A stretch of DNA of 64,000 nucleotides from Escherichia coli (GTDB lineage: Bacteria > Pseudomonadota > Gammaproteobacteria > Enterobacterales > Enterobacteriaceae): NCBI RefSeq assembly GCF_045037415.1, contig NZ_CP173438.1. One strand, given 5' to 3'. Of the stretch, positions 43,255 through 55,599 are shown piece after piece (the first letter of the stretch is position 1; each line of letters starts with the position of its first letter). A program made the position numbers and the translations under genes. The notes under the pieces were generated by a model that had not been told where the DNA came from, made no database searches, and saw nothing but the letters and a program-made list of their open reading frames with translations.

Positions 43255-44988
43255 ATGCATTCCACAGAAGTCCAGGCTAAACCCCTTTTTAGCTGGAAAG
43301 CCCTGGGTTGGGCACTGCTCTACTTTTGGTTTTTCTCTACTCTGCTACAGGCCATTATTTACATCAGTGGTTATAGTGGCACTAACGGCATTCGCGACTC
43401 GCTGTTATTCAGTTCGCTGTGGTTGATCCCGGTATTCCTCTTTCCGAAGCGGATTAAAATTATTGCCGCAGTGATCGGCGTGGTGCTATGGGCGGCCTCT
43501 CTGGCGGCGCTGTGCTATTACGTCATCTACGGTCAGGAGTTCTCGCAGAGCGTTCTGTTTGTGATGTTCGAAACCAACACCAACGAAGCCAGCGAGTATT
43601 TAAGCCAGTATTTCAGCCTGAAAATTGTGCTTATCGCGCTGGCCTATACGGCGGTGGCAGTTCTGCTGTGGACACGCCTGCGCCCGGTCTATATTCCAAA
43701 GCCGTGGCGTTATGTTGTCTCTTTTGCCCTACTTTATGGCTTGATTCTGCATCCGATCGCCATGAATACGTTTATCAAAAACAAGCCGTTTGAGAAAACG
43801 TTGGATAACCTGGCATCGCGTATGGAGCCTGCCGCACCGTGGCAATTCCTGACCGGCTATTATCAGTATCGTCAGCAACTAAACTCGCTAACAAAGCTAC
43901 TGAATGAAAATAATGCATTGCCGCCGCTGGCTAATTTCAAAGATGAATCGGGTAACGAACCGCGCACCTTAGTGCTGGTAATTGGCGAATCGACCCAGCG
44001 TGGACGCATGAGCCTGTACGGTTATCCGCGTGAAACCACGCCGGAGCTGGATGCGCTGCATAAAACCGATCCGAATCTGACCGTGTTTAATAACGTGGTT
44101 ACGTCTCGTCCGTACACCATTGAAATCCTGCAACAGGCGCTGACCTTTGCCAATGAAAAGAACCCGGATCTGTATCTGACGCAGCCGTCGCTGATGAACA
44201 TGATGAAACAGGCGGGTTATAAAACCTTCTGGATCACCAACCAGCAGACAATGACCGCCCGCAATACGATGCTGACGGTATTTTCGCGCCAGACCGACAA
44301 GCAGTACTACATGAACCAGCAACGTACGCAGAGTGCGCGTGAATACGACACCAACGTGCTGAAGCCGTTCCAGGAAGTGCTGAAGGACCCTGCGCCGAAG
44401 AAACTGATCATCGTTCATCTGCTGGGTACGCATATCAAGTACAAGTACCGTTATCCGGAAGATCAGGGCAAATTTGACGGTAATACAGAGCATGTTCCAC
44501 CGGGATTAAACGCAGAAGAGCTGGAGTCATATAATGATTATGACAATGCTAACCTGTACAACGATCACGTGGTTGCCAGCCTGATTAAAGACTTTAAAGC
44601 GACCGATCCGAACGGTTTCCTGGTTTATTTCTCTGACCACGGTGAAGAGGTTTACGACACGCCGCCGCACAAAACTCAGGGGCGTAATGAAGACAATCCG
44701 ACGCGTCATATGTACACCATTCCGTTCCTGCTGTGGACGTCAGAAAAATGGCAAGCGACTCATCCGCGTGATTTCTCACAGGATGTTGATCGTAAATACA
44801 GCCTGGCGGAACTGATCCACACCTGGTCAGATTTGGCGGGCTTATCTTACGACGGTTACGATCCAACCCGTTCAGTGGTGAATCCGCAGTTCAAAGAAAC
44901 TACCCGCTGGATTGGTAACCCGTATAAGAAAAACGCACTGATCGATTACGACACTCTGCCGTATGGCGATCAGGTGGGTAATCAGTAA
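43255..44988 (+). CDS. eptC: Phosphoethanolamine transferase (LPS core modification)
   Basis: Track ORF is 592 aa; trimmed to MHSTEVQAKPLFSW (577 aa); N-terminal membrane helices plus sulfatase-like domain. Confidence 0.9.
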   Translation: MHSTEVQAKPLFSWKALGWALLYFWFFSTLLQAIIYISGYSGTNGIRDSLLFSSLWLIPVFLFPKRIKIIAAVIGVVLWAASLAALCYYVIYGQEFSQSVLFVMFETNTNEASEYLSQYFSLKIVLIALAYTAVAVLLWTRLRPVYIPKPWRYVVSFALLYGLILHPIAMNTFIKNKPFEKTLDNLASRMEPAAPWQFLTGYYQYRQQLNSLTKLLNENNALPPLANFKDESGNEPRTLVLVIGESTQRGRMSLYGYPRETTPELDALHKTDPNLTVFNNVVTSRPYTIEILQQALTFANEKNPDLYLTQPSLMNMMKQAGYKTFWITNQQTMTARNTMLTVFSRQTDKQYYMNQQRTQSAREYDTNVLKPFQEVLKDPAPKKLIIVHLLGTHIKYKYRYPEDQGKFDGNTEHVPPGLNAEELESYNDYDNANLYNDHVVASLIKDFKATDPNGFLVYFSDHGEEVYDTPPHKTQGRNEDNPTRHMYTIPFLLWTSEKWQATHPRDFSQDVDRKYSLAELIHTWSDLAGLSYDGYDPTRSVVNPQFKETTRWIGNPYKKNALIDYDTLPYGDQVGNQ

Positions 44989-45008
44989 TTATCAGCCAGA
45001 TGTTATTT

Positions 45009-45090
<82 letters not shown>

Positions 45091-45213
45091 AATACAAGTC
45101 GACTGAAACTGCCGCAATGTTTACATCTCACTCCCATCAGGCCACACTTTTCAGGTGGCCTTTTTTCATAATGCCAGTTACTGTTTTCCCGTCTACATAC
45201 CTAAGGGAATAAC

Positions 45214-46065
45214 ATGTATCACGACGTCAGCTATCTGCTCTCCCGCCTGATCAACGGCCCGCTGTCCCTGCGCCAGATTTACTTTGCCAGCAGCAACGGC
45301 CCGGTGCCCGATCTTGCGTATCAGGTCGATTTTCCACGTCTGGAAATTGTGCTGGAAGGTGAGTTTATTGATACCGGCGCTGGAGCAGCGTTAGTTCCCG
45401 GCGATGTGCTGTACGTCCCTGCTGGTGGCTGGAATTTTCCACAATGGCAAGCCCCCGCCACGACCTTTAGCGTGCTATTTGGCAAACAGCAACTCGGCTT
45501 CAGCGTCGTGCAATGGGATGGCAAACAATATCAAAATCTGGCGAAGCAACACGTCGCCCGACGCGGCCCACGCATTGGTTCTTTTCTGCTACAAACGCTC
45601 AATGAAATGCAAATGCAGTCGCAGGAGCAGCAAACGGCCAGACTTATCGTCGCCAGCCTGCTTAGCCACTGCCGCGATTTGCTCGGCAGCCAAATACAGA
45701 CCGCCTCACGCAGCCAGGCTCTATTCGAAGCTATTCGTGATTATATCGACGAACGCTATGCCTCCGCACTTACCCGCGAATCTGTCGCACAGGCGTTCTA
45801 TATTTCGCCAAATTACCTCTCGCACCTGTTTCAAAAAACGGGGGCCATTGGTTTTAACGAATACCTGAATCACACGCGACTGGAGCACGCTAAGACATTA
45901 TTGAAAGGCTATGACCTGAAGGTAAAAGAAGTGGCGCACGCCTGCGGCTTTGTCGACAGCAACTACTTCTGCCGTCTGTTTCGTAAAAATACCGAACGCT
46001 CGCCGTCGGAATATCGTCGGCAGTACCACAGCCAACTGACAGAAAAACCGACTACTCCAGAATAA
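45214..46065 (+). CDS. yijO: AraC-family transcriptional regulator
   Basis: 283 aa; C-terminal AraC HTH region. Confidence 0.88.
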   Translation: MYHDVSYLLSRLINGPLSLRQIYFASSNGPVPDLAYQVDFPRLEIVLEGEFIDTGAGAALVPGDVLYVPAGGWNFPQWQAPATTFSVLFGKQQLGFSVVQWDGKQYQNLAKQHVARRGPRIGSFLLQTLNEMQMQSQEQQTARLIVASLLSHCRDLLGSQIQTASRSQALFEAIRDYIDERYASALTRESVAQAFYISPNYLSHLFQKTGAIGFNEYLNHTRLEHAKTLLKGYDLKVKEVAHACGFVDSNYFCRLFRKNTERSPSEYRRQYHSQLTEKPTTPE

Positions 46066-46393
46066 GATGGGTTTGCTGCGGCGCAGAAAGCACTTTGCGC
46101 ACTGCGCTCATCACCCTCTGCGGCTCACGCAGGAAAGCGTAGATGCTGCATTGCACGTAGCGACAATGTTCAAATCGCTCAGCACCGGCAAGCTCGATAT
46201 CCGTAATTAACAGCGCAACATCCGCCCGGCGGATATCCTCGTCCGCTAAACGATTCTCCGTTCCCAACGCGCCCTGAGTTTCAATGCTGACGCCCCACTT
46301 CTCTAACTGGCACAACTTTTCCAGCCGTTCCGCCGCCATATAAGTATGCGCCACGCCGCTTACGCAGGCGGTTACTGCCACCAGATATGCCAT
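46052..46393 (-). CDS. frwD: PTS fructose-like IIB component
   Basis: Track ORF is 141 aa; trimmed to MAYLVAVTACVSGVAHTYMAAE (113 aa). Confidence 0.88.
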   Translation of the reverse strand: MAYLVAVTACVSGVAHTYMAAERLEKLCQLEKWGVSIETQGALGTENRLADEDIRRADVALLITDIELAGAERFEHCRYVQCSIYAFLREPQRVMSAVRKVLSAPQQTHLILE

Positions 46394-46394
46394 T

Positions 46395-47273
46395 TTAACC
46401 TCCCACGGTAACCTGAAATCCGGCCCGTTCTGCCATTTCACGCATCGTTGCCACATCGGCTGACGACGGCGCAGCAACCTCTTTCATCGACCATGTTTTC
46501 CCCAGCAGGCGGTATTTCGGCTCGCCGTACTGATGAAACGGTAACAGATGGATCTGCTTGATATTCAGCGGGATCAGCACGTCCAGCGCCTGCTGCATAT
46601 TCTCCCGGCTGAGCGTGAAACCAGGGATCAGCGGTAAACGCGGGATCACGTTGACACCCTCACTCACCAGCAAACGCAGATTCTCCAGCACGCGTTGCAG
46701 GTTCATCTTCACCACATCCCGCGCCTGAGCCGCATCCATAATTTTTAAATCGAACAACACTTCATCGCACAATTTCGCCAGCGGTAACAGCTTGCTGGCT
46801 GGCGCGTCTCCGGCAGTTTCGATGGCGCATGACACACCCCATAGCCGCAGTCGCTGTAAAAAACGGGTCGCAAACTCCGCCTGCATTAACACTTCGCCGC
46901 CAGAAAGCGTGACGCCGCCGCCGGACGTGCGAAAGAAAATGTCATCTTTCATCACTTCCCGTTCCAGCGCGTCAAGGCTGATATCGCGGCCAATCCGTTC
47001 AAATGCCCCGGAGGGGCATTCATCCGCATCACGCAAACATTTCGCGCAGTGCAGACATTTCGCCTCTCTGCGCACCGTCTGGATTTTGCCGGAGATCGAC
47101 TCCGGATTAGCACACCATGGGCAAAGATGCGGACAGCCTTTAAAAAAGACCACCGTACGAATGCCCTCGCCGTCATTCAGTGAATAACGCTGAATGTTGA
47201 AAATGCGCGCCACATCATCGCGGCGCGTTTCCACAACGTTACAGCTGATGCGCTGTCCGGCGGATGATGTCAT
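46395..47273 (-). CDS. pflC: Glycyl-radical enzyme activating enzyme (radical SAM)
   Basis: Track ORF is 315 aa; trimmed to MTSSAGQRISC (292 aa); CxxxCxxC cluster CPHLCPWC. Confidence 0.88.
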   Translation of the reverse strand: MTSSAGQRISCNVVETRRDDVARIFNIQRYSLNDGEGIRTVVFFKGCPHLCPWCANPESISGKIQTVRREAKCLHCAKCLRDADECPSGAFERIGRDISLDALEREVMKDDIFFRTSGGGVTLSGGEVLMQAEFATRFLQRLRLWGVSCAIETAGDAPASKLLPLAKLCDEVLFDLKIMDAAQARDVVKMNLQRVLENLRLLVSEGVNVIPRLPLIPGFTLSRENMQQALDVLIPLNIKQIHLLPFHQYGEPKYRLLGKTWSMKEVAAPSSADVATMREMAERAGFQVTVGG

Positions 47274-49536
47274 CCTGGATCTCCTTCGACAGTTCGACAA
47301 AGAAGGCGCTGTATCCGGCAACGCGCACCACCAGCCCGGCATAATCTTGTGGGCGCTGTTGCGCTTCCCGTAACGTGTCGGCGTTCACCACGTTAAACTG
47401 AATATGCTGCAACTTAAGCTGGGTAAACGCCCGTAAGAAGTCGGCCAGTTTGCGTAATCCCGCTTCACCTTCGAGGGTCGCCGGAGTGAATTTCACGTTC
47501 AGCAATGTACCGTTAGAAAGCAGTGTGTTATCGAGCTTACTGACTGATTTCAGTACCGCCGTTGGTCCTTGTGCGTCCTGACCCAGCATGGGTGACAAGC
47601 CACCGTCTGCCAGTTGCTCTCCGGCAAAGCGACCGTCTGGCGTCGCGCCAACCACCGCTCCCAACGGGACATGAGCAGAAACGGTATACGATCCCGGCGT
47701 GAAGTAGCCGCCGCGCGGGTTCTGGTATTTTTCCACTTCTTTGCAGTAGTGGCGTAACAGTTCGGCGCTAATGTTATCCACCTCGTCGATATCGTTACCG
47801 TATTTCTCGAAGCGGTTAATTAAGCGAGCGCGGACTTTTTCGCCTTCTGGCGTGGCGAAGTTGGCTTTTAATACCGACAGCAATTCGTCAAAACTTAAAC
47901 GCTGTTGATCAAAAATCATCCCTTTCAACGCATGGAGAGAATCGCTCAGGTTGGCGATACCGATCCCCTGTACGCCGGAGAAGTTATAACGCGCGCCGCC
48001 ATCGGTAATATCGCGACCTTTTTCCAGACAATCGCTGATAAAAGACGAGAGTAGCGGTACAGGTGCCCAGTCGCGATGGCCGATATCACAAATATTGCTG
48101 CCCTCAACCATCAGGGTGATGTAGTGGCTGATCTTGGCGCGGATCTGTTCCAGTAAACCTTCATAAGTCAGCGCAGCGTTGCCTTCATTTTCATGCAGGC
48201 AGATTTCCATCACTTTCAGCAGGTTAAACATCGCGATGTCATGCAAGCCGTAGGTTCTGCCGGGAATAGATAATTCCACACAGCCCACTACGGAATAGTC
48301 GCGCGCATCTTCCAGCAAAACGCCACGGTTGAGGAACGCTGGCACTACCACTTCATCGTTAAAGATTTGCGGAATACCGGTGCCGAGGCGAATGGTTTCT
48401 GCGGTTTTCATCAGGAACGGCGTGTCGATCAAGGCGTTAGTGCGCACGCCGAGGTTCGGTTGCGGTAATTGCACGCTTTGATAAGCGTCAAGGCAAAGGA
48501 ACGAAAGCACGTTCACCGCGCTACGTCCGTTCTCGGTTAACCCGCCGAGCAGTGCGGTATAGCCGGTAGGGAAACCGGCGAAATAACGCGCGCTACTGGT
48601 GGAGCGCAACAGCACGATGTCGTTGCATTTCACCCATAAAGATTCGAGCAGTTCTTTCAGGAATGCCGGATCTTCGCCCTGGGTTAATGATGTCTGATAG
48701 AACGGCAACATATACTGGTCGAAGCGCCCCAACGATAGCGAACTGGCGTTGGATTCGTATTGCAGAATGATGTTCATGTACCAGAATAACTGGCACGCCT
48801 GCCAGAACGTCTGCGGCTTATGTTCGGCGTTATGGCGGGAGATCTCCGCAATAGTCAGCAATTCTTCGCGACGCGGGCCATCAGTGCAGCTTGCCGCCAT
48901 CGTTTCCGCCAGTTCGGCGTAACGCAAAATATGTTTCTGCGAGGCTTCCAGCAGTAACAGCGCTGCCTGATAAAAGTGATTCTCCGGCTGTTGCTGACAA
49001 TGTTGCTGCATCTGTGCCACCAGCTCCCCCAGCCCGTGATTCAGCAGGCGCGGGTAATCAATAATAATGTGCCCCTGGCCTTTATCCGTCTGGTTGATGC
49101 TGAAAATCTGCGTGCTGGTCGCGGCTTTTACTTCATCCGTCATCTGCCCGTTGATGAAATCTTTCATCGAACGTTTTTCCCAGTACGGGAACAACTCTTC
49201 GCGGTAGATACGTTTATCTTCTTCGCTGATAGCAAAGCGGTCCTGCGGACGCGTCGGGAATTGATCCAGTTCTTTCAGCAGCCAGTAAGGGTCCATTTCC
49301 GGCGACATAATCCCGGCGCGTGGTTTTACGGTGCGGTTACCGGCAATCAGTTCTTCATCACGAATCGAAATTTCAACGTGTTCAAGGATATACGCTGTTG
49401 CTTTCGCCCGACGCATTATCACCGGCTCCCCTTCGGTTTGCCGATGGCTGGCGGTATAAAGCAACGCCCGCTCCAGCGAGATTTCACGGGTATTGGCAAA
49501 CAGTGCAGTTTTGAGGCGAGAGATACGATTCGTCAT
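47239..49536 (-). CDS. pflD: Pyruvate formate-lyase-like glycyl radical enzyme
   Basis: 765 aa; glycyl radical motif RVAGYSA near the C-terminus. Confidence 0.93.
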   Translation of the reverse strand: MTNRISRLKTALFANTREISLERALLYTASHRQTEGEPVIMRRAKATAYILEHVEISIRDEELIAGNRTVKPRAGIMSPEMDPYWLLKELDQFPTRPQDRFAISEEDKRIYREELFPYWEKRSMKDFINGQMTDEVKAATSTQIFSINQTDKGQGHIIIDYPRLLNHGLGELVAQMQQHCQQQPENHFYQAALLLLEASQKHILRYAELAETMAASCTDGPRREELLTIAEISRHNAEHKPQTFWQACQLFWYMNIILQYESNASSLSLGRFDQYMLPFYQTSLTQGEDPAFLKELLESLWVKCNDIVLLRSTSSARYFAGFPTGYTALLGGLTENGRSAVNVLSFLCLDAYQSVQLPQPNLGVRTNALIDTPFLMKTAETIRLGTGIPQIFNDEVVVPAFLNRGVLLEDARDYSVVGCVELSIPGRTYGLHDIAMFNLLKVMEICLHENEGNAALTYEGLLEQIRAKISHYITLMVEGSNICDIGHRDWAPVPLLSSFISDCLEKGRDITDGGARYNFSGVQGIGIANLSDSLHALKGMIFDQQRLSFDELLSVLKANFATPEGEKVRARLINRFEKYGNDIDEVDNISAELLRHYCKEVEKYQNPRGGYFTPGSYTVSAHVPLGAVVGATPDGRFAGEQLADGGLSPMLGQDAQGPTAVLKSVSKLDNTLLSNGTLLNVKFTPATLEGEAGLRKLADFLRAFTQLKLQHIQFNVVNADTLREAQQRPQDYAGLVVRVAGYSAFFVELSKEIQDDIIRRTAHQL

Positions 49537-49586
49537 GAGGAACTCCTGTGGGAAAGCGAACCCGCCCTTGCGGGCGGGATAAGAAC

Positions 49587-49907
49587 TTAAGCGGTTTGTG
49601 CCAGGTGAGCTTCAATTTTGCTCATAATGGCGTCAGCACGCTTTACCGCGTCGCTGATGTTGACACGCACGATAGTCTTGCCAGCAAAACGCTCTTCAAA
49701 TTTGATGCCGATATCTTTGGTCAAAATCACCATATCGGCGCTTGCCACGTCTTCCGCAGTCAGTTCATTTTCCAGACCAATCGACCCCTGGGTTTCTACT
49801 TTTACTTCCCAGCCTTTCGCTTTCGCGGCGCTTTCCAGCGCCTCTGCCGCCATATAAGTATGGGCAACACCTGAAGGACATGCGGTTACTGCGATAATTT
49901 TCGTCAT
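49587..49907 (-). CDS. frwB: PTS fructose-like IIB component
   Basis: 106 aa; MTKIIAVTACPSGVAHTYMAAEALE. Confidence 0.9.
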   Translation of the reverse strand: MTKIIAVTACPSGVAHTYMAAEALESAAKAKGWEVKVETQGSIGLENELTAEDVASADMVILTKDIGIKFEERFAGKTIVRVNISDAVKRADAIMSKIEAHLAQTA

Positions 49908-49921
49908 GGCTCGTTCCTCAA

Positions 49922-51001
49922 TTAATTAATTTCAAAATCCAGATCCAGGTCGTCTTCCTTCTCTTCAGTTGAAGACCCATTTTTACGCGCCAGACTTTTC
50001 AGCACGTTCACGCAGACTGCCGTCACAACCGCCCCGACAGCCACTGCCGCGATGTAACCCAACTTACCTTCAACCACCGGCAGCACAATCAGACCACCCC
50101 AGCCTGCATAGCACTGCGCACCGACCAGCGCCGCAGTTACCGCACCACAAACTGAACCGACCATGATGGAAGGAATGACACGCAGCGGATCGGCAGCGGC
50201 GAAAGGAATCGCCCCTTCAGTAACGCCAACACAGCCCATCACCAGTGCCGCCTTGCCGGTTTCGCGCTCTTCTGCGGAGAAATTTTTACGACCAATCAGC
50301 GTCGCCAGCCCCATCCCCAGCGGTGGAACACAAATCCCAACAGCGGCAATAGCCACCACGGTATAAACACCCTGAGCAACGCAAATCAGCATGAAGGCAT
50401 AGGCCACTTTGTTAACCGGGCCGCCCATATCGAACGCCAGCATCAGACCCATGATCACCGCCAGCATAACAATGCTGCCCTGCTGCATCCCCTGAAGCCA
50501 CTGGGTCAGGCTGTTGGTCAACGCCCCCACCGGCTCGCCCAGCCCCCACATCATGACGCCAGCGGTAATCAGTGTGCCGACGATTGGAATGATGAAGATT
50601 GGCATTACCGAGCGCAGAACTTTATGCACTGGAATTTTCTTCAGGTAATGCACCACGATGCCGCCGATAATCCCGGCGATCAGCGCACCAAAGAAGCCCG
50701 CGCCAAAGCTGTTACCAACCCAGGCACCGATAGCGCATGGAGCCAGCGCAGAACGTTCTGCAATGGAATAACCGATGTAAGCGGCGAGGAAAGGCACCAT
50801 CAGCGTCAAACCTGCAACGCCGATATCAAACAGTTTTTTCAGATTCGGATCGGCTACGGCATCCGGCACTGCGCCTTTGCCATACAACATGACGGAAACC
50901 GCCAGCAAAATACCGCCCGATACCACGAAGGGAATCATGTGTGAAACGCCCGTCATTAAATGCTGACGGGTATTTTTCAGGATCTGCACCAACTCATTCA
51001 T
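49922..51001 (-). CDS. frwC: PTS fructose-like IIC permease
   Basis: 359 aa, polytopic membrane protein. Confidence 0.92.
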   Translation of the reverse strand: MNELVQILKNTRQHLMTGVSHMIPFVVSGGILLAVSVMLYGKGAVPDAVADPNLKKLFDIGVAGLTLMVPFLAAYIGYSIAERSALAPCAIGAWVGNSFGAGFFGALIAGIIGGIVVHYLKKIPVHKVLRSVMPIFIIPIVGTLITAGVMMWGLGEPVGALTNSLTQWLQGMQQGSIVMLAVIMGLMLAFDMGGPVNKVAYAFMLICVAQGVYTVVAIAAVGICVPPLGMGLATLIGRKNFSAEERETGKAALVMGCVGVTEGAIPFAAADPLRVIPSIMVGSVCGAVTAALVGAQCYAGWGGLIVLPVVEGKLGYIAAVAVGAVVTAVCVNVLKSLARKNGSSTEEKEDDLDLDFEIN

Positions 51002-51309
51002 AAGCTGCTCCCGGGCTTGCGAAAGCCCATGTCCATATTTTTGATGGAAGAAACAATAGGCAATCGCAGGCGGAGCAAACAGTGGATAAAAAGGCCATTT
51101 ACTGGACTTTTGTAATATCAGTACAAAAATGCGATCCGCCTCATAACTTGCGATAATCCGGAAGTACGCCGCAAAACGGCGTCTTGTGAGACGCGTCGCA
51201 AATTGACGGTTACATTACATTTGTCCAGCTTTTGGCAGATTTGTCACATGGCAGGCCGTTGCCGTGCGCTCTTATCCTGTAAACAGAAAACCGTACCGGG
51301 AGAAAGGCA

Positions 51310-53811
51310 ATGGCCCTGATTGTGGAATTTATTTGTGAGCTACCTAACGGCGTCCATGCGCGTCCGGCAAGCCACGTTGAAACGCTGTGTAATACTTTTT
51401 CATCACAAATTGAGTGGCATAACCTGCGCACTGACCGCAAGGGCAACGCCAAAAGCGCCCTTGCGCTGATTGGCACCGATACGCTGGTGGGCGATAACTG
51501 CCAGTTACTGATTTCCGGGGCCGACGAACAGGAAGCGCACCAGCGTTTAAGCCAATGGCTGCGCGATGAATTCCCCCACTGCGACGCACCGCTGGCGGAA
51601 GTAAAATCTGACGAACTGGAACCACTGCCGGTTTCACTGACCAATCTGAATCCGCAAATTATCCGCGCTCGCACCGTGTGCAGCGGTAGCGCAGGCGGCA
51701 TTCTGACGCCGATCTCTTCTTTAGATCTCAATGCGCTGGGTAATCTTCCCGCAGCCAAAGGCGTTGACGCCGAACAATCCGCACTGGAAAACGGTCTGAC
51801 GCTGGTACTGAAAAACATAGAGTTTCGTCTGCTGGATAGCGACGGTGCTACCAGCGCGATTCTGGAAGCGCACCGATCCCTGGCTGGCGATACTTCCCTG
51901 CGCGAACATTTACTGGCAGGTGTCAGCGCCGGATTAAGCTGCGCCGAAGCGATTGTTGCCAGTGCGAATCACTTTTGCGAAGAGTTCGCCCGTTCCAGCA
52001 GCAGTTACCTGCAAGAACGTGCCCTGGACGTACGCGACGTCTGCTTCCAGTTACTCCAGCAAATCTACGGTGAGCAACGCTTCCCGGCACCGGGCAAACT
52101 GACGCAGCCCGCCATTTGTATGGCTGATGAACTGACCCCCAGCCAGTTCCTCGAACTGGATAAAAATCATCTCAAAGGTCTGTTACTGAAAAGTGGCGGC
52201 ACCACATCACATACGGTGATCCTTGCCCGTTCGTTCAACATTCCGACGCTGGTAGGTGTGGATATTGATGCCCTTACTCCGTGGCAGCATCAGACGATTT
52301 ATATCGACGGCAACGCAGGGGCGATTGTGGTTGAGCCAGGGGAATCCGTGGCCCGTTATTATCAGCAAGAAGCCCGCGTACAGGACGCTCTGCGTGAGCA
52401 ACAGCGTGTCTGGCTGACCCAGCAAGCGCGTACCGCTGACGGTATCCGCATTGAAATTGCCGCTAACATCGCTCACTCCGTGGAAGCGCAGGCCGCATTC
52501 GGCAATGGTGCGGAAGGCGTTGGTTTGTTCCGCACTGAAATGCTCTATATGGATCGCACCAGTGCACCGGGTGAAAGCGAGCTGTACAACATCTTTTGTC
52601 AGGCGCTGGAGTCTGCCAACGGACGCAGCATTATTGTGCGCACTATGGACATTGGTGGTGACAAACCCGTTGATTATCTGAACATTCCCGCAGAAGCTAA
52701 CCCGTTCCTCGGTTATCGCGCGGTGCGTATTTATGAAGAATACGCGTCGTTGTTTACCACACAACTACGATCGATCCTGCGCGCCTCTGCTCACGGCAGC
52801 CTGAAAATCATGATCCCGATGATCTCCTCAATGGAAGAGATCTTATGGGTGAAAGAAAAACTGGCGGAAGCCAAACAGCAACTGCGTAACGAACACATTC
52901 CGTTTGATGAGAAGATCCAGCTCGGCATCATGCTGGAAGTGCCGTCGGTGATGTTCATCATCGATCAATGCTGCGAAGAGATTGATTTCTTTAGTATTGG
53001 TAGTAATGACCTGACGCAATATCTACTGGCAGTGGATCGCGATAACGCTAAGGTGACTCGTCACTACAACAGCCTGAATCCGGCCTTCTTGCGGGCGCTC
53101 GATTACGCCGTGCAGGCGGTGCATCGCCAGGGCAAATGGATTGGTCTGTGCGGTGAACTGGGAGCGAAAGGTTCCGTGCTGCCGTTGCTGGTCGGTTTAG
53201 GGCTGGATGAACTCAGCATGAGCGCACCATCAATTCCGGCGGCGAAAGCGCGGATGGCGCAACTTGATAGCCGTGAGTGCCGCCAGTTGCTCAACCAGGC
53301 AATGGCCTGCCGTACTTCGCTGGAAGTGGAACACCTGCTGGCGCAATTCCGCATGACCCAACAGGACGCACCGCTGGTCACCGCCGAGTGCATCACACTG
53401 GAAAGCGACTGGCGCAGCAAAGAAGAAGTGCTCAAAGGCATGACCGATAACCTGCTGCTGGCGGGCCGCTGCCGCTATCCGCGTAAACTGGAAGCCGACT
53501 TGTGGGCGCGCGAGGCCGTTTTCTCTACCGGACTGGGCTTTAGTTTCGCCATTCCCCACAGTAAATCGGAACACATTGAGCAATCCACCATCAGCGTAGC
53601 GCGTCTGCAAGCGCCAGTGCGCTGGGGCGATGATGAAGCGCAATTCATCATTATGTTAACCCTGAACAAACACGCCGCGGGCGATCAACATATGCGCATT
53701 TTCTCGCGCCTCGCTCGTCGCATCATGCACGAAGAATTCCGTAATGCGCTGGTTAACGCCGCCTCTGCCGACGCTATCGCCAGCCTGCTGCAACATGAAC
53801 TGGAACTGTAA
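51310..53811 (+). CDS. ptsA: Multiphosphoryl transfer protein (HPr-EI-IIA fusion)
   Basis: 833 aa; HPr-like N-terminus, enzyme I core, IIA-like C-terminus; divergent from frwC. Confidence 0.92.
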
Positions 53812-53822
53812 AAGGAAACATC

Positions 53823-54485
53823 ATGGAACTGTATCTGGACACCGCTAACGTCGCAGAAGTCGAACGTCTGGCACGCATATTCCCGATTGCCGGGGTGACA
53901 ACTAACCCGAGCATTATCGCTGCCAGCAAGGAGTCCATCTGGGAAGTGCTGCCGCGCCTGCAAAAAGCGATCGGTGATGAGGGCATTCTGTTTGCTCAGA
54001 CCATGAGCCGCGACGCGCAGGGTATGGTGAAAGAAGCGAAACGCCTGCGCGACGCTATTCCGGGCATTGTGGTGAAAATTCCGGTAACCTCTGAAGGTCT
54101 GGCAGCAATTAAAATGCTGAAGAAAGAAGGCATTACTACGCTGGGAACCGCAGTGTACAGCGCCGCGCAAGGATTACTGGCGGCGCTGGCTGGAGCCAAA
54201 TACGTTGCTCCATACGTTAACCGCGTAGATGCCCAGGGCGGTGACGGCATTCGTACTGTACAGGAGTTGCAAGCGTTACTGGAAATGCATGCGCCAGAAA
54301 GCATGGTGCTGGCTGCCAGCTTTAAAACACCACGTCAGGCGCTGGATTGTTTGCTGGCAGGATGTGAATCCATCACACTGCCCTTAGATGTAGCGCAACA
54401 AATGCTTAACACCCCTGCGGTAGAGTCAGCTATAGAGAAGTTCGAGCACGACTGGAATGCCGCATTTGGCACTACTCATCTCTAA
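53823..54485 (+). CDS. fsaB: Fructose-6-phosphate aldolase 2
   Basis: 220 aa; transaldolase-like [13 protein letters not shown]. Confidence 0.92.
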
Positions 54486-54495
54486 AGGAGTAATT

Positions 54496-55599
54496 ATGGA
54501 CCGCATTATTCAATCACCAGGTAAATACATCCAGGGCGCAGATGTAATTAATCGTCTGGGCGAGTACCTGAAGCCACTGGCGGAACGCTGGTTAGTGGTG
54601 GGTGACAAATTTGTTTTAGGTTTTGCTCAATCCACTGTCGAGAAAAGCTTTAAAGATGCTGGACTGGTAGTAGAAATTGCGCCGTTTGGCGGTGAATGTT
54701 CGCAAAATGAGATCGACCGTCTGCGTGGCATCGCGGAGACTGCGCAGTGTGGCGCAATTCTCGGTATTGGTGGCGGAAAAACCCTCGATACTGCCAAAGC
54801 ACTGGCACATTTCATGGGTGTTCCGGTAGCGATCGCACCGACTATCGCTTCTACCGACGCACCGTGCAGCGCATTGTCTGTTATCTACACCGATGAGGGT
54901 GAGTTTGACCGCTATCTGCTGTTGCCAAATAACCCGAATATGGTCATTGTCGACACCAAAATCGTCGCTGGCGCGCCCGCGCGTCTGTTAGCGGCGGGTA
55001 TTGGCGATGCGCTGGCAACCTGGTTTGAAGCGCGTGCCTGTTCCCGTAGCGGCGCGACCACCATGGCGGGTGGCAAGTGCACTCAGGCAGCGCTGGCACT
55101 GGCTGAACTGTGCTACAACACCCTGCTGGAAGAAGGCGAAAAAGCGATGCTTGCCGCCGAACAGCATGTAGTGACTCCGGCGCTGGAGCGCGTGATTGAA
55201 GCGAACACCTATTTGAGTGGCGTTGGTTTTGAAAGCGGCGGGCTGGCGGCGGCACACGCGGTACATAACGGCCTGACCGCTATCCCGGACGCGCATCACT
55301 ATTATCATGGTGAAAAAGTGGCATTCGGTACGCTGACGCAGCTGGTTCTGGAAAACGCGCCGGTGGAGGAAATCGAAACCGTAGCTGCGCTTAGCCATGC
55401 GGTAGGTTTGCCAATAACTCTCGCTCAACTGGATATTAAAGAAGATGTCCCGGCAAAAATGCGAATTGTGGCAGAAGCGGCATGTGCAGAAGGTGAAACC
55501 ATCCACAACATGCCTGGCGGCGCGACGCCAGATCAGGTTTACGCCGCACTGCTGGTAGCCGACCAGTATGGTCAGCGTTTCCTGCAAGAGTGGGAATAA
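54496..55599 (+). CDS. gldA: Glycerol dehydrogenase
   Basis: Track ORF is 380 aa; trimmed to [17 protein letters not shown] (367 aa). Confidence 0.93.

What the first reader, a model, noticed from the sequence alone, without database searches (positions are those of the whole stretch)
46052..51001. Cryptic frw PTS / pflDC glycyl-radical cluster intact, with compact overlaps
All five genes (frwC, frwB, pflD, pflC, frwD) are full length with no frameshifts. The pflD stop lies 35 nt inside the pflC start, and the frwD 3' end overlaps the convergent yijO by 14 nt. This tight packing suggests translational coupling, and the intact state is worth noting because this cluster is regarded as cryptic in K-12. 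It is expected core content, not novel.
Basis: partly seen in the sequence, partly recalled or inferred. Interest (0 to 1): 0.15.

Follow-up and report, generated by a model that had tools for sequence, protein, structure and literature searches.

The report
Known E. coli frw/pflDC sugar-alcohol operon

Summary
On the minus strand lie frwC (49922-51001), frwB (49587-49907), pflD (47239-49536), pflC (46395-47273) and frwD (46052-46393). Each has the same length as in K-12 and no internal stops. pflD and pflC overlap by 35 nt, and frwD overlaps convergent yijO by 14 nt, exactly as in K-12. 5389 of 5426 complete E. coli genomes carry the region.

Across 65 loci from Enterobacterales and Gilliamella, 576 conserved degenerate pflD codons were scored. 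Exactly three never vary synonymously: AAG and GAG (the AAGGAG ribosome-binding site) and GAT (which supplies pflC's ATG). The non-overlapping GTG start is missing in many genera. The overlap is therefore genuine and under selection.

Translational coupling is plausible for pflD-pflC and pflC-frwD but untested. It cannot apply to the convergent frwD/yijO pair. "Cryptic" is outdated: Ma et al. 2024 and PDB 8YJO identify PflD as a glycyl-radical enzyme acting on 1,5-anhydromannitol-6-phosphate.

One extra finding: a stem-loop immediately after frwB is conserved in structure, not sequence, in 61 of 70 loci.

Verdict: already known, low interest.

The parts
49922..51001 (-). frwC, PTS fructose-family EIIC, 359 aa
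   Evidence: ORF. Annotated. Same length as K-12 with 3 aa differences. NCBIfam NF007787 matches 1-359/359. GGGAG lies 6 nt before the ATG.
49587..49907 (-). frwB, PTS EIIB, 106 aa
   Evidence: Protein identical to K-12. NF007783 matches 1-106/106. EIIB motif TACPSGVAHTYMAA is present. The spacer after frwC is 14 nt and contains GAGGAA.
49561..49578 (-). Intercistronic stem-loop CCCGCCC-GCAA-GGGCGGG, starting 8 nt after the frwB stop and followed by TTCGCTTTCC. It looks like an intrinsic terminator or an RNA-stabilising hairpin.
   Evidence: Top terminator-like hit. The 50-nt spacer folds at dG -18.2, z -2.3. A hairpin of dG <= -10 is present at this position in 61/70 related loci, with 31 different stem sequences, against 2.6% of size-matched pflD coding windows. 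No Rfam family matches.
47239..49536 (-). pflD, glycyl-radical enzyme of the PFL2/glycerol-dehydratase family, 765 aa. Reported to act on 1,5-anhydromannitol-6-phosphate.
   Evidence: Pfam PFL-like plus Gly_radical domains. NF007437 matches 1-765/765 and TIGR01774 also matches. PDB 8YJO 'Probable dehydratase PflD' covers residues 1-765. RVAGY at 738 and GCVE at 418. Function taken from PMC12441222, which cites Ma et al. 2024.
47281..47286 (-). Shine-Dalgarno AAGGAG of pflC, formed by pflD codons K751 (AAG) and E752 (GAG), 7 nt before the ATG
   Evidence: Sequence read. Both codons are invariant in 65 loci, whereas AAA and GAA are the commoner synonymous choices elsewhere in the same genes. The motif is lost (AAA GAA) in the Vibrio loci whose other in-frame ATG overlaps pflD by only 11 nt.
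47239..47273 (-). 35-nt pflD/pflC overlap, from the pflC ATG (47273-47271, inside pflD codons GAT GAC) to the pflD TAA (47241-47239)
   Evidence: Identical to K-12. Conserved in all Enterobacterales and Gilliamella loci. The GAT codon shows no synonymous variation.
46395..47273 (-). pflC, radical-SAM activating enzyme for the glycyl-radical enzyme, 292 aa
   Evidence: Pfam Radical_SAM plus Fer4_12. NF007483 matches 1-292/292. CPHLCPWC at residue 47 and a second Cys cluster at C73/C76/C79/C86. Orthologues are 292 aa in Citrobacter, Phytobacter, Kluyvera and Pluralibacter.
46399..46404 (-). Shine-Dalgarno GGGAGG of frwD, inside the last codons of pflC. pflC TAA is at 46397-46395, followed by a 1-nt spacer and the frwD ATG at 46393.
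   Evidence: Sequence read.
46052..46393 (-). frwD, second PTS EIIB, 113 aa
   Evidence: NF007747 matches 1-113 against model positions 2-114/114. Motif TACVSGVAHTYMAA is present.
46052..46065 (.). 14-nt tail-to-tail overlap between frwD (-) and yijO (+)
   Evidence: The same 14-nt overlap occurs in most Escherichia, Citrobacter, Enterobacter, Lelliottia, Pluralibacter and Atlantibacter loci. Other lineages range from a 136-nt gap to a 29-nt overlap.
45214..46065 (+). yijO, AraC-family regulator, 283 aa. It sits convergent to frwD in many lineages and is a candidate regulator of the cluster (inference).
   Evidence: Pfam HTH_18 and HTH_AraC. It stays adjacent and convergent to frwD even in Vibrio and Pseudovibrio loci, where two extra genes separate pflC from frwD.
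51002..51309 (.). Divergent control region between frwC and ptsA. It contains a CRP-like site, TGTGAGACGCGTCGCA, at 51185-51200.
   Evidence: Sequence and K-12 comparison. Pattern scan finds 1 mismatch to TGTGA-N6-TCACA. Binding was not tested.
51310..55599 (+). Divergent ptsA-fsaB-gldA operon: ptsA 51310-53811, fsaB 53823-54485, gldA ending at 55599. These are the partner genes of the pathway: phosphoryl transfer, aldolase and reductase.
   Evidence: ORFs. Annotation. ptsA has the same length as K-12. An FSA-type aldolase and an SDR are encoded inside the cluster in Vibrio barjaei L067, which supports a functional link.

Best explanation
The region is the conserved E. coli operon frwC-frwB-pflD-pflC-frwD, with convergent yijO and the divergent ptsA-fsaB-gldA operon alongside.

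Published function (not tested here): a fructose-family PTS takes up and phosphorylates 1,5-anhydromannitol. The PTS consists of FrwC (EIIC) and FrwB/FrwD (EIIB), with PtsA assumed to be the phosphoryl donor. PflD, a glycyl-radical enzyme of the glycerol-dehydratase branch, is switched on anaerobically by the radical-SAM activase PflC. PflD converts the 6-phosphate into 1-deoxyfructose-6-phosphate. From my own recollection of Ma et al. 2024, FsaB then cleaves this product and GldA reduces the hydroxyacetone that results.

Shown here:
- All genes are intact and the same length as in K-12, with pflD/pflC junction sequence and both overlap lengths unchanged.
- pflC translation starts at the ATG at 47273, 35 nt inside pflD, served by an AAGGAG made of pflD codons K751 and E752. 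Both the ribosome-binding site and the ATG are under absolute synonymous constraint across Enterobacterales and Gilliamella.
- frwD starts 1 nt after the pflC stop, with GGGAGG inside pflC.

Inferred:
- Ribosomes finishing pflD and pflC help load the next cistron, keeping activase and the second EIIB tied to enzyme synthesis.
- The conserved stem-loop after frwB separates transporter mRNA from enzyme mRNA, either as a leaky terminator or as a stabiliser.
- The tail-to-tail frwD/yijO overlap simply reflects two conserved C-termini with no terminator between them.
For: Identity and intactness:
- Searches cover annotation and the K-12 comparison.
- Searches give full-length family matches.
- One search confirms the catalytic motifs.
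- One search shows the region is present in 5389/5426 genomes.

pflC start:
- AAGGAG, 7 nt, then ATG with a 35-nt overlap in every Enterobacterales and Gilliamella locus.
- Of 576 conserved degenerate pflD codon columns in 65 loci, the only three without any synonymous variation are AAG, GAG and GAT. These are exactly the ribosome-binding site and the start codon. By chance, three zero-variation columns would fall on those three sites with probability about 1 in 3x10^7.
- The constraint is relaxed where that start shows no sign of being used. Four Vibrio loci (L065, L067, L077, L081) read AAA GAA there, and three loci lack the ATG (GAC GAC in Vibrio hannami L060, Hahella L069 and Photobacterium L080). 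All seven have an in-frame ATG at an 11-nt overlap. The Clostridium and Tissierellia loci have an 8-nt spacer.
- The non-overlapping GTG is absent in many genera.

Function:
- PMC12441222 summarises Ma et al. 2024.
- PDB 8YJO is 'Probable dehydratase PflD', and PflD is far closer to B12-independent glycerol dehydratase (E 1.6e-192) than to PflB (E 6e-33).
- An FSA aldolase gene lies inside the cluster in Vibrio.
- frwC-frwB-pflD-pflC-frwD synteny is conserved across many genera.
Against: - No expression, start-site or coupling data were available. A strong ribosome-binding site could act independently of pflD translation.
- A 35-nt overlap is longer than the 1- or 4-nt overlaps typical of termination-reinitiation coupling.
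- The predicted local hairpin that masks the pflC ribosome-binding site (-8.8 kcal/mol) is not better than shuffled sequence in its wider context (z -0.77). It also shows no covariation beyond what the fixed PflD peptide imposes.
- The primary paper (Ma et al. 2024) could not be read. Substrate and pathway details therefore rest on a review's summary and on my memory.
- Roles for YijO and for the CRP-like site are guesses.
Confidence: 0.88

Rival explanations
1. pflC really starts downstream of the pflD stop, at GTG 47234, giving a 279-aa protein whose N-terminal lead is similar in length to PflA's. On this view there is no overlap, and the ATG and AAGGAG inside pflD are by-products of the conserved PflD C-terminal peptide.
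For: Some JGI gene calls for orthologues use exactly this start (P0090 and P0093, 279 aa, beginning VEPRSD). The GTG lies 4 nt after the pflD stop. The K-E-I-Q-D-D peptide of PflD is itself invariant, so part of the nucleotide conservation is explained by the protein.
Against: The GTG has no ribosome-binding site. It is absent in many genera, including Pluralibacter, C. braakii, C. koseri, Yersinia, Atlantibacter, Raoultella, Serratia and Intestinirhabdus. Amino-acid conservation cannot explain why only the third positions of AAG, GAG and GAT, out of 576 degenerate codons, never vary, while neighbouring codons vary freely. The reading frame stays open from the ATG through N-terminal segments of 15 to 40 codons in different lineages.
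Confidence: 0.04
2. The overlaps carry no regulatory meaning. Each cistron is initiated independently at its own strong ribosome-binding site, and the overlap is only genome compaction frozen in place by the dual coding constraint.
For: AAGGAG with a 7-nt spacer and GGGAGG with a 5-nt spacer are strong enough for de novo initiation. No significant structure sequesters the pflC initiation region. The overlap length differs between lineages (35, 11 or none), so no particular geometry is required.
Against: The start stays within or next to the last 12 codons of pflD in all Gammaproteobacteria examined. A ribosome-binding site is kept inside the upstream gene, which is the usual signature of coupled cistrons. 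No direct evidence favours either view.
Confidence: 0.3
3. The cluster is a silent relic in E. coli, intact only through recent common descent, as the word 'cryptic' implies.
For: The older K-12 annotation still calls every product 'putative'.
Against: The gene order frwC-frwB-pflD-pflC-frwD is kept from Escherichia to Serratia and Yersinia, with PflD 83-93% identical, which indicates purifying selection. Fine-scale selection acts on the internal ribosome-binding site and ATG. A biochemical function, a growth phenotype and a structure are reported.
Confidence: 0.03

Closest known systems
E. coli K-12 frwCB-pflDC-frwD cluster (b3949-b3953) with yijO and ptsA-fsaB-gldA
   Same: Same genes, order, lengths, start and stop codons, and both overlaps (35 nt and 14 nt). 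The pflD/pflC junction is identical base for base.
   Different: Only allelic differences: 14 to 65 nucleotide and 0 to 12 amino-acid substitutions per gene in frwC-frwD. The window comes from a non-K-12 lineage that is 100% identical to several human isolates.
YbiW/YbiY, the paralogous E. coli glycyl-radical enzyme and activase pair acting on 1,5-anhydroglucitol-6-phosphate
   Same: Same enzyme family and the same product, 1-deoxyfructose-6-phosphate, according to PMC12441222. Both structures are deposited as 'Probable dehydratase' (8YJO; 8YJN and 8ID7).
   Different: A distant paralogue: E 1.7e-142 against 0 for PflD itself. Its substrate is the C2 epimer. It lies at a different locus, which was not examined here.
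B12-independent glycerol dehydratase with its activase (Clostridium butyricum, PDB 1R8W)
   Same: Closest characterised enzyme outside the PflD and YbiW group (E 1.6e-192). It belongs to the same TIGR01774 subfamily. It shares the GCVE Cys-Glu loop and the RVxGY glycyl loop. Its activase is also of the TIGR02494 type with extra Cys clusters.
   Different: Different substrate (glycerol) and no PTS genes in its context.
PflB/PflA pyruvate formate-lyase system, the source of the gene names and the RefSeq product names
   Same: Glycyl-radical domain and a radical-SAM activase.
   Different: Only a weak, partial match (E 6e-33). TIGR01255 scores 120 bits against a cut-off of 994. 'Formate C-acetyltransferase' is therefore a misleading name for PflD.
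Translationally coupled overlapping cistrons in bacterial operons (for example trpE/trpD or trpB/trpA in E. coli; cited from general knowledge)
   Same: Same strand, with the downstream start and its ribosome-binding site embedded in the end of the upstream gene.
   Different: The overlap is 35 nt rather than the usual 1 or 4 nt, and coupling has not been measured here.

Membership tests
Glycyl-radical enzyme, PFL2/glycerol-dehydratase subfamily (TIGR01774) | Full-length PFL-like barrel plus C-terminal glycine-radical domain | tested here: met
   Pfam PF02901 covers residues 1-626 and PF01228 covers 645-747. TIGR01774 scores 1340 bits against a cut-off of 678. NF007437 matches 1-765/765.
Glycyl-radical enzyme, PFL2/glycerol-dehydratase subfamily (TIGR01774) | Glycyl-radical motif RVxG[YF] and a catalytic Cys loop (GCxE in the dehydratase branch) | tested here: met
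   RVAGY at residue 738 and GCVE at 418.
Glycyl-radical enzyme, PFL2/glycerol-dehydratase subfamily (TIGR01774) | Activity on 1,5-anhydromannitol-6-phosphate | not testable with these tools
   Reported by Ma et al. 2024 as summarised in PMC12441222. The window protein differs from K-12 PflD at 12 of 765 residues.
Pyruvate formate-lyase proper (TIGR01255, formate C-acetyltransferase) | Score above the equivalog cut-off | tested here: not met
   120 bits against a cut-off of 994, and only a C-terminal stretch matches. The PDB PflB match is E 6e-33. The RefSeq product name should not be taken literally.
Glycyl-radical-enzyme activating enzyme (TIGR02494, radical SAM) | CxxxCxxC radical-SAM cluster motif plus an auxiliary Cys-rich ferredoxin-like insert | tested here: met
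   CPHLCPWC at residues 47-54 and C73/C76/C79/C86. Pfam PF04055 and PF13353. TIGR02494 scores 264 bits against a cut-off of 174. NF007483 matches 1-292/292.
PTS fructose-family EIIC/EIIB components | Full-length match to the EIIC and EIIB models, and the EIIB phosphorylation-site Cys motif | tested here: met
   NF007787 matches 1-359/359, NF007783 matches 1-106/106, NF007747 covers FrwD 1-113. Motif TAC(P/V)SGVAHTYMAA is present in FrwB and FrwD. Pfam itself has no hit for FrwC at E <= 0.001.
Translationally coupled overlapping gene pair | Co-directional genes, with the downstream start and its ribosome-binding site inside the 3' end of the upstream gene, conserved | tested here: met
   for pflD/pflC. 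for pflC/frwD.
Translationally coupled overlapping gene pair | Downstream translation depends on translation of the upstream cistron | not testable with these tools
   This needs reporter fusions with premature stops in pflD. The fold of the initiation region gives no significant masking structure.
Intrinsic (Rho-independent) terminator, for the frwB-pflD stem-loop | GC-rich stem-loop directly followed by a U-tract | tested here: inconclusive
   A stem of 7 G-C pairs with a GCAA loop is present. The tail TTCGCTTTCC has only 5 T in 10. T-rich tails occur in the Escherichia, Citrobacter and Enterobacter groups, but A-rich tails occur in Klebsiella. The conserved element is the hairpin, not the U-tract.

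The most novel reading that the evidence does not exclude
The operon may carry two conserved post-transcriptional control points that I found described in none of the sources searched.

1. A stem-loop placed 4-10 nt after the frwB stop in most loci, kept in structure across Enterobacterales, Gilliamella, Vibrio and Pseudovibrio despite 31 different stem sequences. It could act as a leaky terminator or a 3'-end stabiliser that sets the ratio of transporter to enzyme.

2. A ribosome-binding site and ATG for the activase, embedded in the last 12-16 codons of the glycyl-radical enzyme gene. PflC would then be made on the same mRNA, beside the just-completed C-terminal glycyl-radical domain it must activate, which could favour activation in cis.
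Probability: 0.25. Interest if true: 0.3.

Novelty: already known. Interest (0 to 1): 0.12.

Why it matters
It matters little beyond housekeeping. The cluster is core E. coli content, and its biochemical role has been published. Three things are useful.

1. Comparative evidence fixes the pflC start at the overlapping ATG. Some pipelines call a 279-aa product instead.

2. The product names 'formate C-acetyltransferase' and 'cryptic' are out of date.

3. The conserved hairpin after frwB and the embedded ribosome-binding site and ATG are simple, testable handles for anyone studying how this anaerobic anhydro-sugar pathway balances transporter, enzyme and activase.

Tried and rejected
- Alternative pflC starts. 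GTG 47234 (279 aa) and ATG 47342 (315 aa, the longest ORF) both lack a ribosome-binding site and are not conserved.
- A hairpin masking the pflC ribosome-binding site as the coupling mechanism. A local stem between CUUCUU and AAGGAG exists (-8.8 kcal/mol). However, the 131-nt context folds no better than shuffles (z -0.77). The few variable third positions in the arms pair about as often as their marginal frequencies predict (my reading). Left as unsupported.
- Formal covariation on the frwB-pflD hairpin. MAFFT put the Klebsiella-type stems out of register (alignment A2), so pair counts would have been meaningless. I replaced this with per-locus hairpin detection against a coding-sequence background.
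- Rfam search. Nothing inside the cluster, only sub-threshold naRNA4 (REP-derived) hits at 44972-45137, outside it.
- Promoter consensus scan. 3 hits against 4.8 expected, so uninformative.
- Literature. The first search was swamped by 'PfLDH' malaria papers. Ma et al. 2024 is not held in the library, so its content is cited second-hand from PMC12441222.

Full report
**What is there**

The window is E. coli. Region 45000-52500 is 100% identical to several human isolates, and 5389 of 5426 complete E. coli genomes hold at least 80% of it in one piece.

The mechanical ORF list, the RefSeq annotation of an identical genome and K-12 MG1655 agree on the genes:

| Gene | Window coordinates | Strand | Length |
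|---|---|---|---|
| frwC | 49922-51001 | - | 359 aa |
| frwB | 49587-49907 | - | 106 aa |
| pflD | 47239-49536 | - | 765 aa |
| pflC | 46395-47273 | - | 292 aa |
| frwD | 46052-46393 | - | 113 aa |
| yijO | 45214-46065 | + | 283 aa |
| ptsA | 51310-53811 | + | 833 aa |
| fsaB | 53823-54485 | + | 220 aa |
| gldA | ends 55599 | + | |

A base-by-base comparison with K-12 gives equal lengths, the same start and stop codons, no internal stops, and 0 to 12 amino-acid differences per protein. The pflD/pflC junction is identical.

All five products match their NCBIfam equivalog models end to end. Pfam domains are complete for all but FrwC, which has no Pfam hit at E <= 0.001. The catalytic motifs are present: RVAGY, GCVE, CPHLCPWC with a second Cys cluster, and the EIIB Cys motif.

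**Is the 35-nt overlap real or an annotation choice?**

An in-frame GTG lies 4 nt after the pflD stop. It would give a 279-aa PflC with an N-terminal lead about as long as PflA's. Some JGI gene calls for orthologues use it (P0090 and P0093).

To test this I fetched 79 loci encoding PflC relatives from one genome per species.

- In every Enterobacterales and Gilliamella locus, the ATG with a 35-nt overlap is preceded by AAGGAG (or AGGAG/GGGAG) at a 7-nt spacing.
- The GTG is missing in many genera.

The ribosome-binding site and the ATG lie inside the invariant PflD tail ...SKEIQDDIIRRTAHQL. I therefore asked whether the nucleotides are conserved beyond what the protein demands.

- In a codon alignment of pflD from 65 loci, 576 columns have a conserved, degenerate amino acid.
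- Exactly three of these show no synonymous variation at all: K(-15) AAG, E(-14) GAG and D(-11) GAT. These are the Shine-Dalgarno sequence and the codon that supplies pflC's ATG.
- Elsewhere in the same genes AAA, GAA and GAC are common, and the flanking codons vary freely.
- The constraint relaxes where that start shows no sign of being used. Four Vibrio loci (L065, L067, L077, L081) read AAA GAA there, and three loci lack the ATG (GAC GAC in Vibrio hannami L060, Hahella L069 and Photobacterium L080). All seven have an in-frame ATG that overlaps pflD by 11 nt (CAT GAx). The Clostridium and Tissierellia loci have an 8-nt spacer.

The 292-aa start is therefore under purifying selection, and the overlap is genuine.

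**Other junctions**

- frwD starts 1 nt after the pflC stop, with GGGAGG inside pflC.
- frwB follows frwC after 14 nt, with GAGGAA in the spacer.
- The frwB-pflD spacer is not tight. Its 50 nt hold a stem of 7 G-C pairs with a GCAA loop (49561-49578), followed by TTCGCTTTCC. This was the best terminator-like hit in the region.
- Across 70 loci with a measurable spacer, 61 have a hairpin of dG <= -10 at this place, usually starting 4-10 nt after the frwB stop. They carry 31 different stem sequences. Only 2.6% of size-matched windows inside pflD fold as well.
- The T-rich tail is present in the Escherichia, Citrobacter and Enterobacter groups but not in Klebsiella. What is conserved is the hairpin itself.
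- Rfam has nothing there.
- I read this as a leaky terminator or a 3'-end stabiliser separating transporter mRNA from enzyme mRNA. This is inference only.

**The convergent overlap**

frwD and yijO end tail to tail and share 14 nt. The same 14 nt of overlap recur in Escherichia, Citrobacter, Enterobacter, Lelliottia, Pluralibacter and Atlantibacter. Other lineages range from a 136-nt gap to a 29-nt overlap.

This cannot be translational coupling, because the genes are on opposite strands. It means that neither gene has room for its own terminator, so transcripts must run into each other. Any regulatory use of that is speculation.

yijO stays next to frwD even where two extra genes separate pflC from frwD. 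That fits a role as the cluster's regulator, but this was not tested.

**What it does**

The cluster is no longer cryptic. PMC12441222 summarises Ma et al., J Am Chem Soc 2024, 146:26187. According to that summary:

- Anaerobic pathways for 1,5-anhydroglucitol and 1,5-anhydromannitol begin with PTS phosphorylation.
- YbiW converts the glucitol 6-phosphate, and PflD the mannitol 6-phosphate, into 1-deoxyfructose-6-phosphate.
- E. coli grows on 1,5-anhydroglucitol using these pathways.

The primary paper is not held in the library.

Independent support found here:

- The E. coli PflD structure is in the PDB as 8YJO, 'Probable dehydratase PflD'.
- PflD is far closer to B12-independent glycerol dehydratase (E 1.6e-192) than to PflB (E 6e-33).
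- PflD fails the true pyruvate formate-lyase model (120 bits against a cut-off of 994).
- In Vibrio barjaei an FSA-type aldolase and an SDR are encoded between pflC and frwD. This matches the fsaB-gldA pair that sits divergently in E. coli.

From my own memory of the paper's abstract, FsaA or FsaB cleaves the deoxy-ketose phosphate to glyceraldehyde-3-phosphate and hydroxyacetone, and GldA reduces the latter to 1,2-propanediol.

**Mechanism, shown and inferred**

Shown:
- Intact genes.
- A conserved internal ribosome-binding site and ATG for pflC.
- A ribosome-binding site for frwD inside pflC.
- A conserved hairpin after frwB.
- A conserved 14-nt convergent overlap.

Inferred:
- Coupling of PflC and FrwD synthesis to the upstream cistron.
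- The function of the hairpin.
- Regulation by YijO and by the CRP-like site at 51185-51200.

I looked for a structure that would mask the pflC ribosome-binding site until pflD is translated. A local stem exists (-8.8 kcal/mol). The region as a whole folds no better than shuffled sequence (z -0.77), and there is no covariation beyond coding constraint. The coupling mechanism therefore remains open.

**Verdict**

The finding is ordinary, already-known core content. The only additions are a clean comparative proof of the pflC start and a conserved intercistronic hairpin that has not, to my knowledge, been described. Interest is low.

Noticed in passing
window 49561-49578 (- strand), with tail to about 49551: A GC-rich stem-loop (CCCGCCC GCAA GGGCGGG) starts 8 nt after the frwB stop. 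A hairpin at the equivalent place occurs in 61/70 related loci with 31 different stems, against 2.6% of control windows. It could be a leaky terminator or an mRNA stabiliser.
   Followed up: partly
L060, L065, L067, L069, L077, L080, L081 (Vibrio, Hahella, Photobacterium); L072 and L074 (Clostridium, Tissierellia): The position of the pflC start appears to have moved during evolution. In the Vibrio, Hahella and Photobacterium loci an in-frame ATG overlaps pflD by only 11 nt (CAT GAx), and the AAGGAG is lost or the 35-nt ATG is absent. The Pseudovibrio loci (L063, L066) keep both ATGs. The Clostridium and Tissierellia loci have an 8-nt spacer.
   Followed up: yes
L067 5319-6918 (Vibrio barjaei): An RmlD-like SDR and an FSA-type aldolase are encoded between pflC and frwD. 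This links the glycyl-radical enzyme to an Fsa aldolase, as in the divergent E. coli fsaB-gldA.
   Followed up: partly
window 45007-45092 and 45139-45170: A pair of REP/BIME palindromes lies between eptC and yijO (GCCGGATGCGACG... / GTAGGCCGGATAAGGCG). They give sub-threshold naRNA4 hits and probably explain the roughly 22 megablast places per genome. They are followed by a terminator-like hairpin, AGGCCAC...GTGGCCT plus T6.
   Followed up: partly
window 51185-51200: A CRP-like site, TGTGAGACGCGTCGCA, has 1 mismatch to TGTGA-N6-TCACA. It lies in the 308-nt divergent frwC/ptsA control region. Two weaker matches are at 51130 and 51233.
   Followed up: no
RefSeq annotation of the identical genome (L001) and NCBIfam names: Product names are misleading. 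pflD is labelled 'formate C-acetyltransferase' although it fails the PFL equivalog and is deposited as a dehydratase. PGAP names the gene for the EI-like multiphosphoryl protein PtsA 'ptsP'.
   Followed up: partly
hits H1 (NZ_CP051661.1) and H2 (NZ_AP040168.1): Two otherwise identical E. coli genomes carry an IS3-family insertion (IS1397 or ISEc52) inside this region. Natural disruptions therefore exist but are rare.
   Followed up: no
proteins P0001, P0118, P0006-P0016: Database variants of PflC include a 402-aa PflC-FrwD fusion, a 322-aa product that carries the PflD glycyl-radical tail fused to PflC, and several 258-274-aa forms with internal deletions. These are probably assembly or frameshift artefacts, or pseudogenes.
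   Followed up: no
L034, L036, L048, L051, L079 (Kluyvera, Pseudocitrobacter); L042-L057 (Klebsiella, Raoultella): Some genera have pflD-pflC without adjacent frwC, frwB or frwD. In Klebsiella and Raoultella the yijO-like gene lies further downstream on the same strand instead of convergent. Across Enterobacterales PflD is much better conserved (83-93%) than PflC (60-82%).
   Followed up: no
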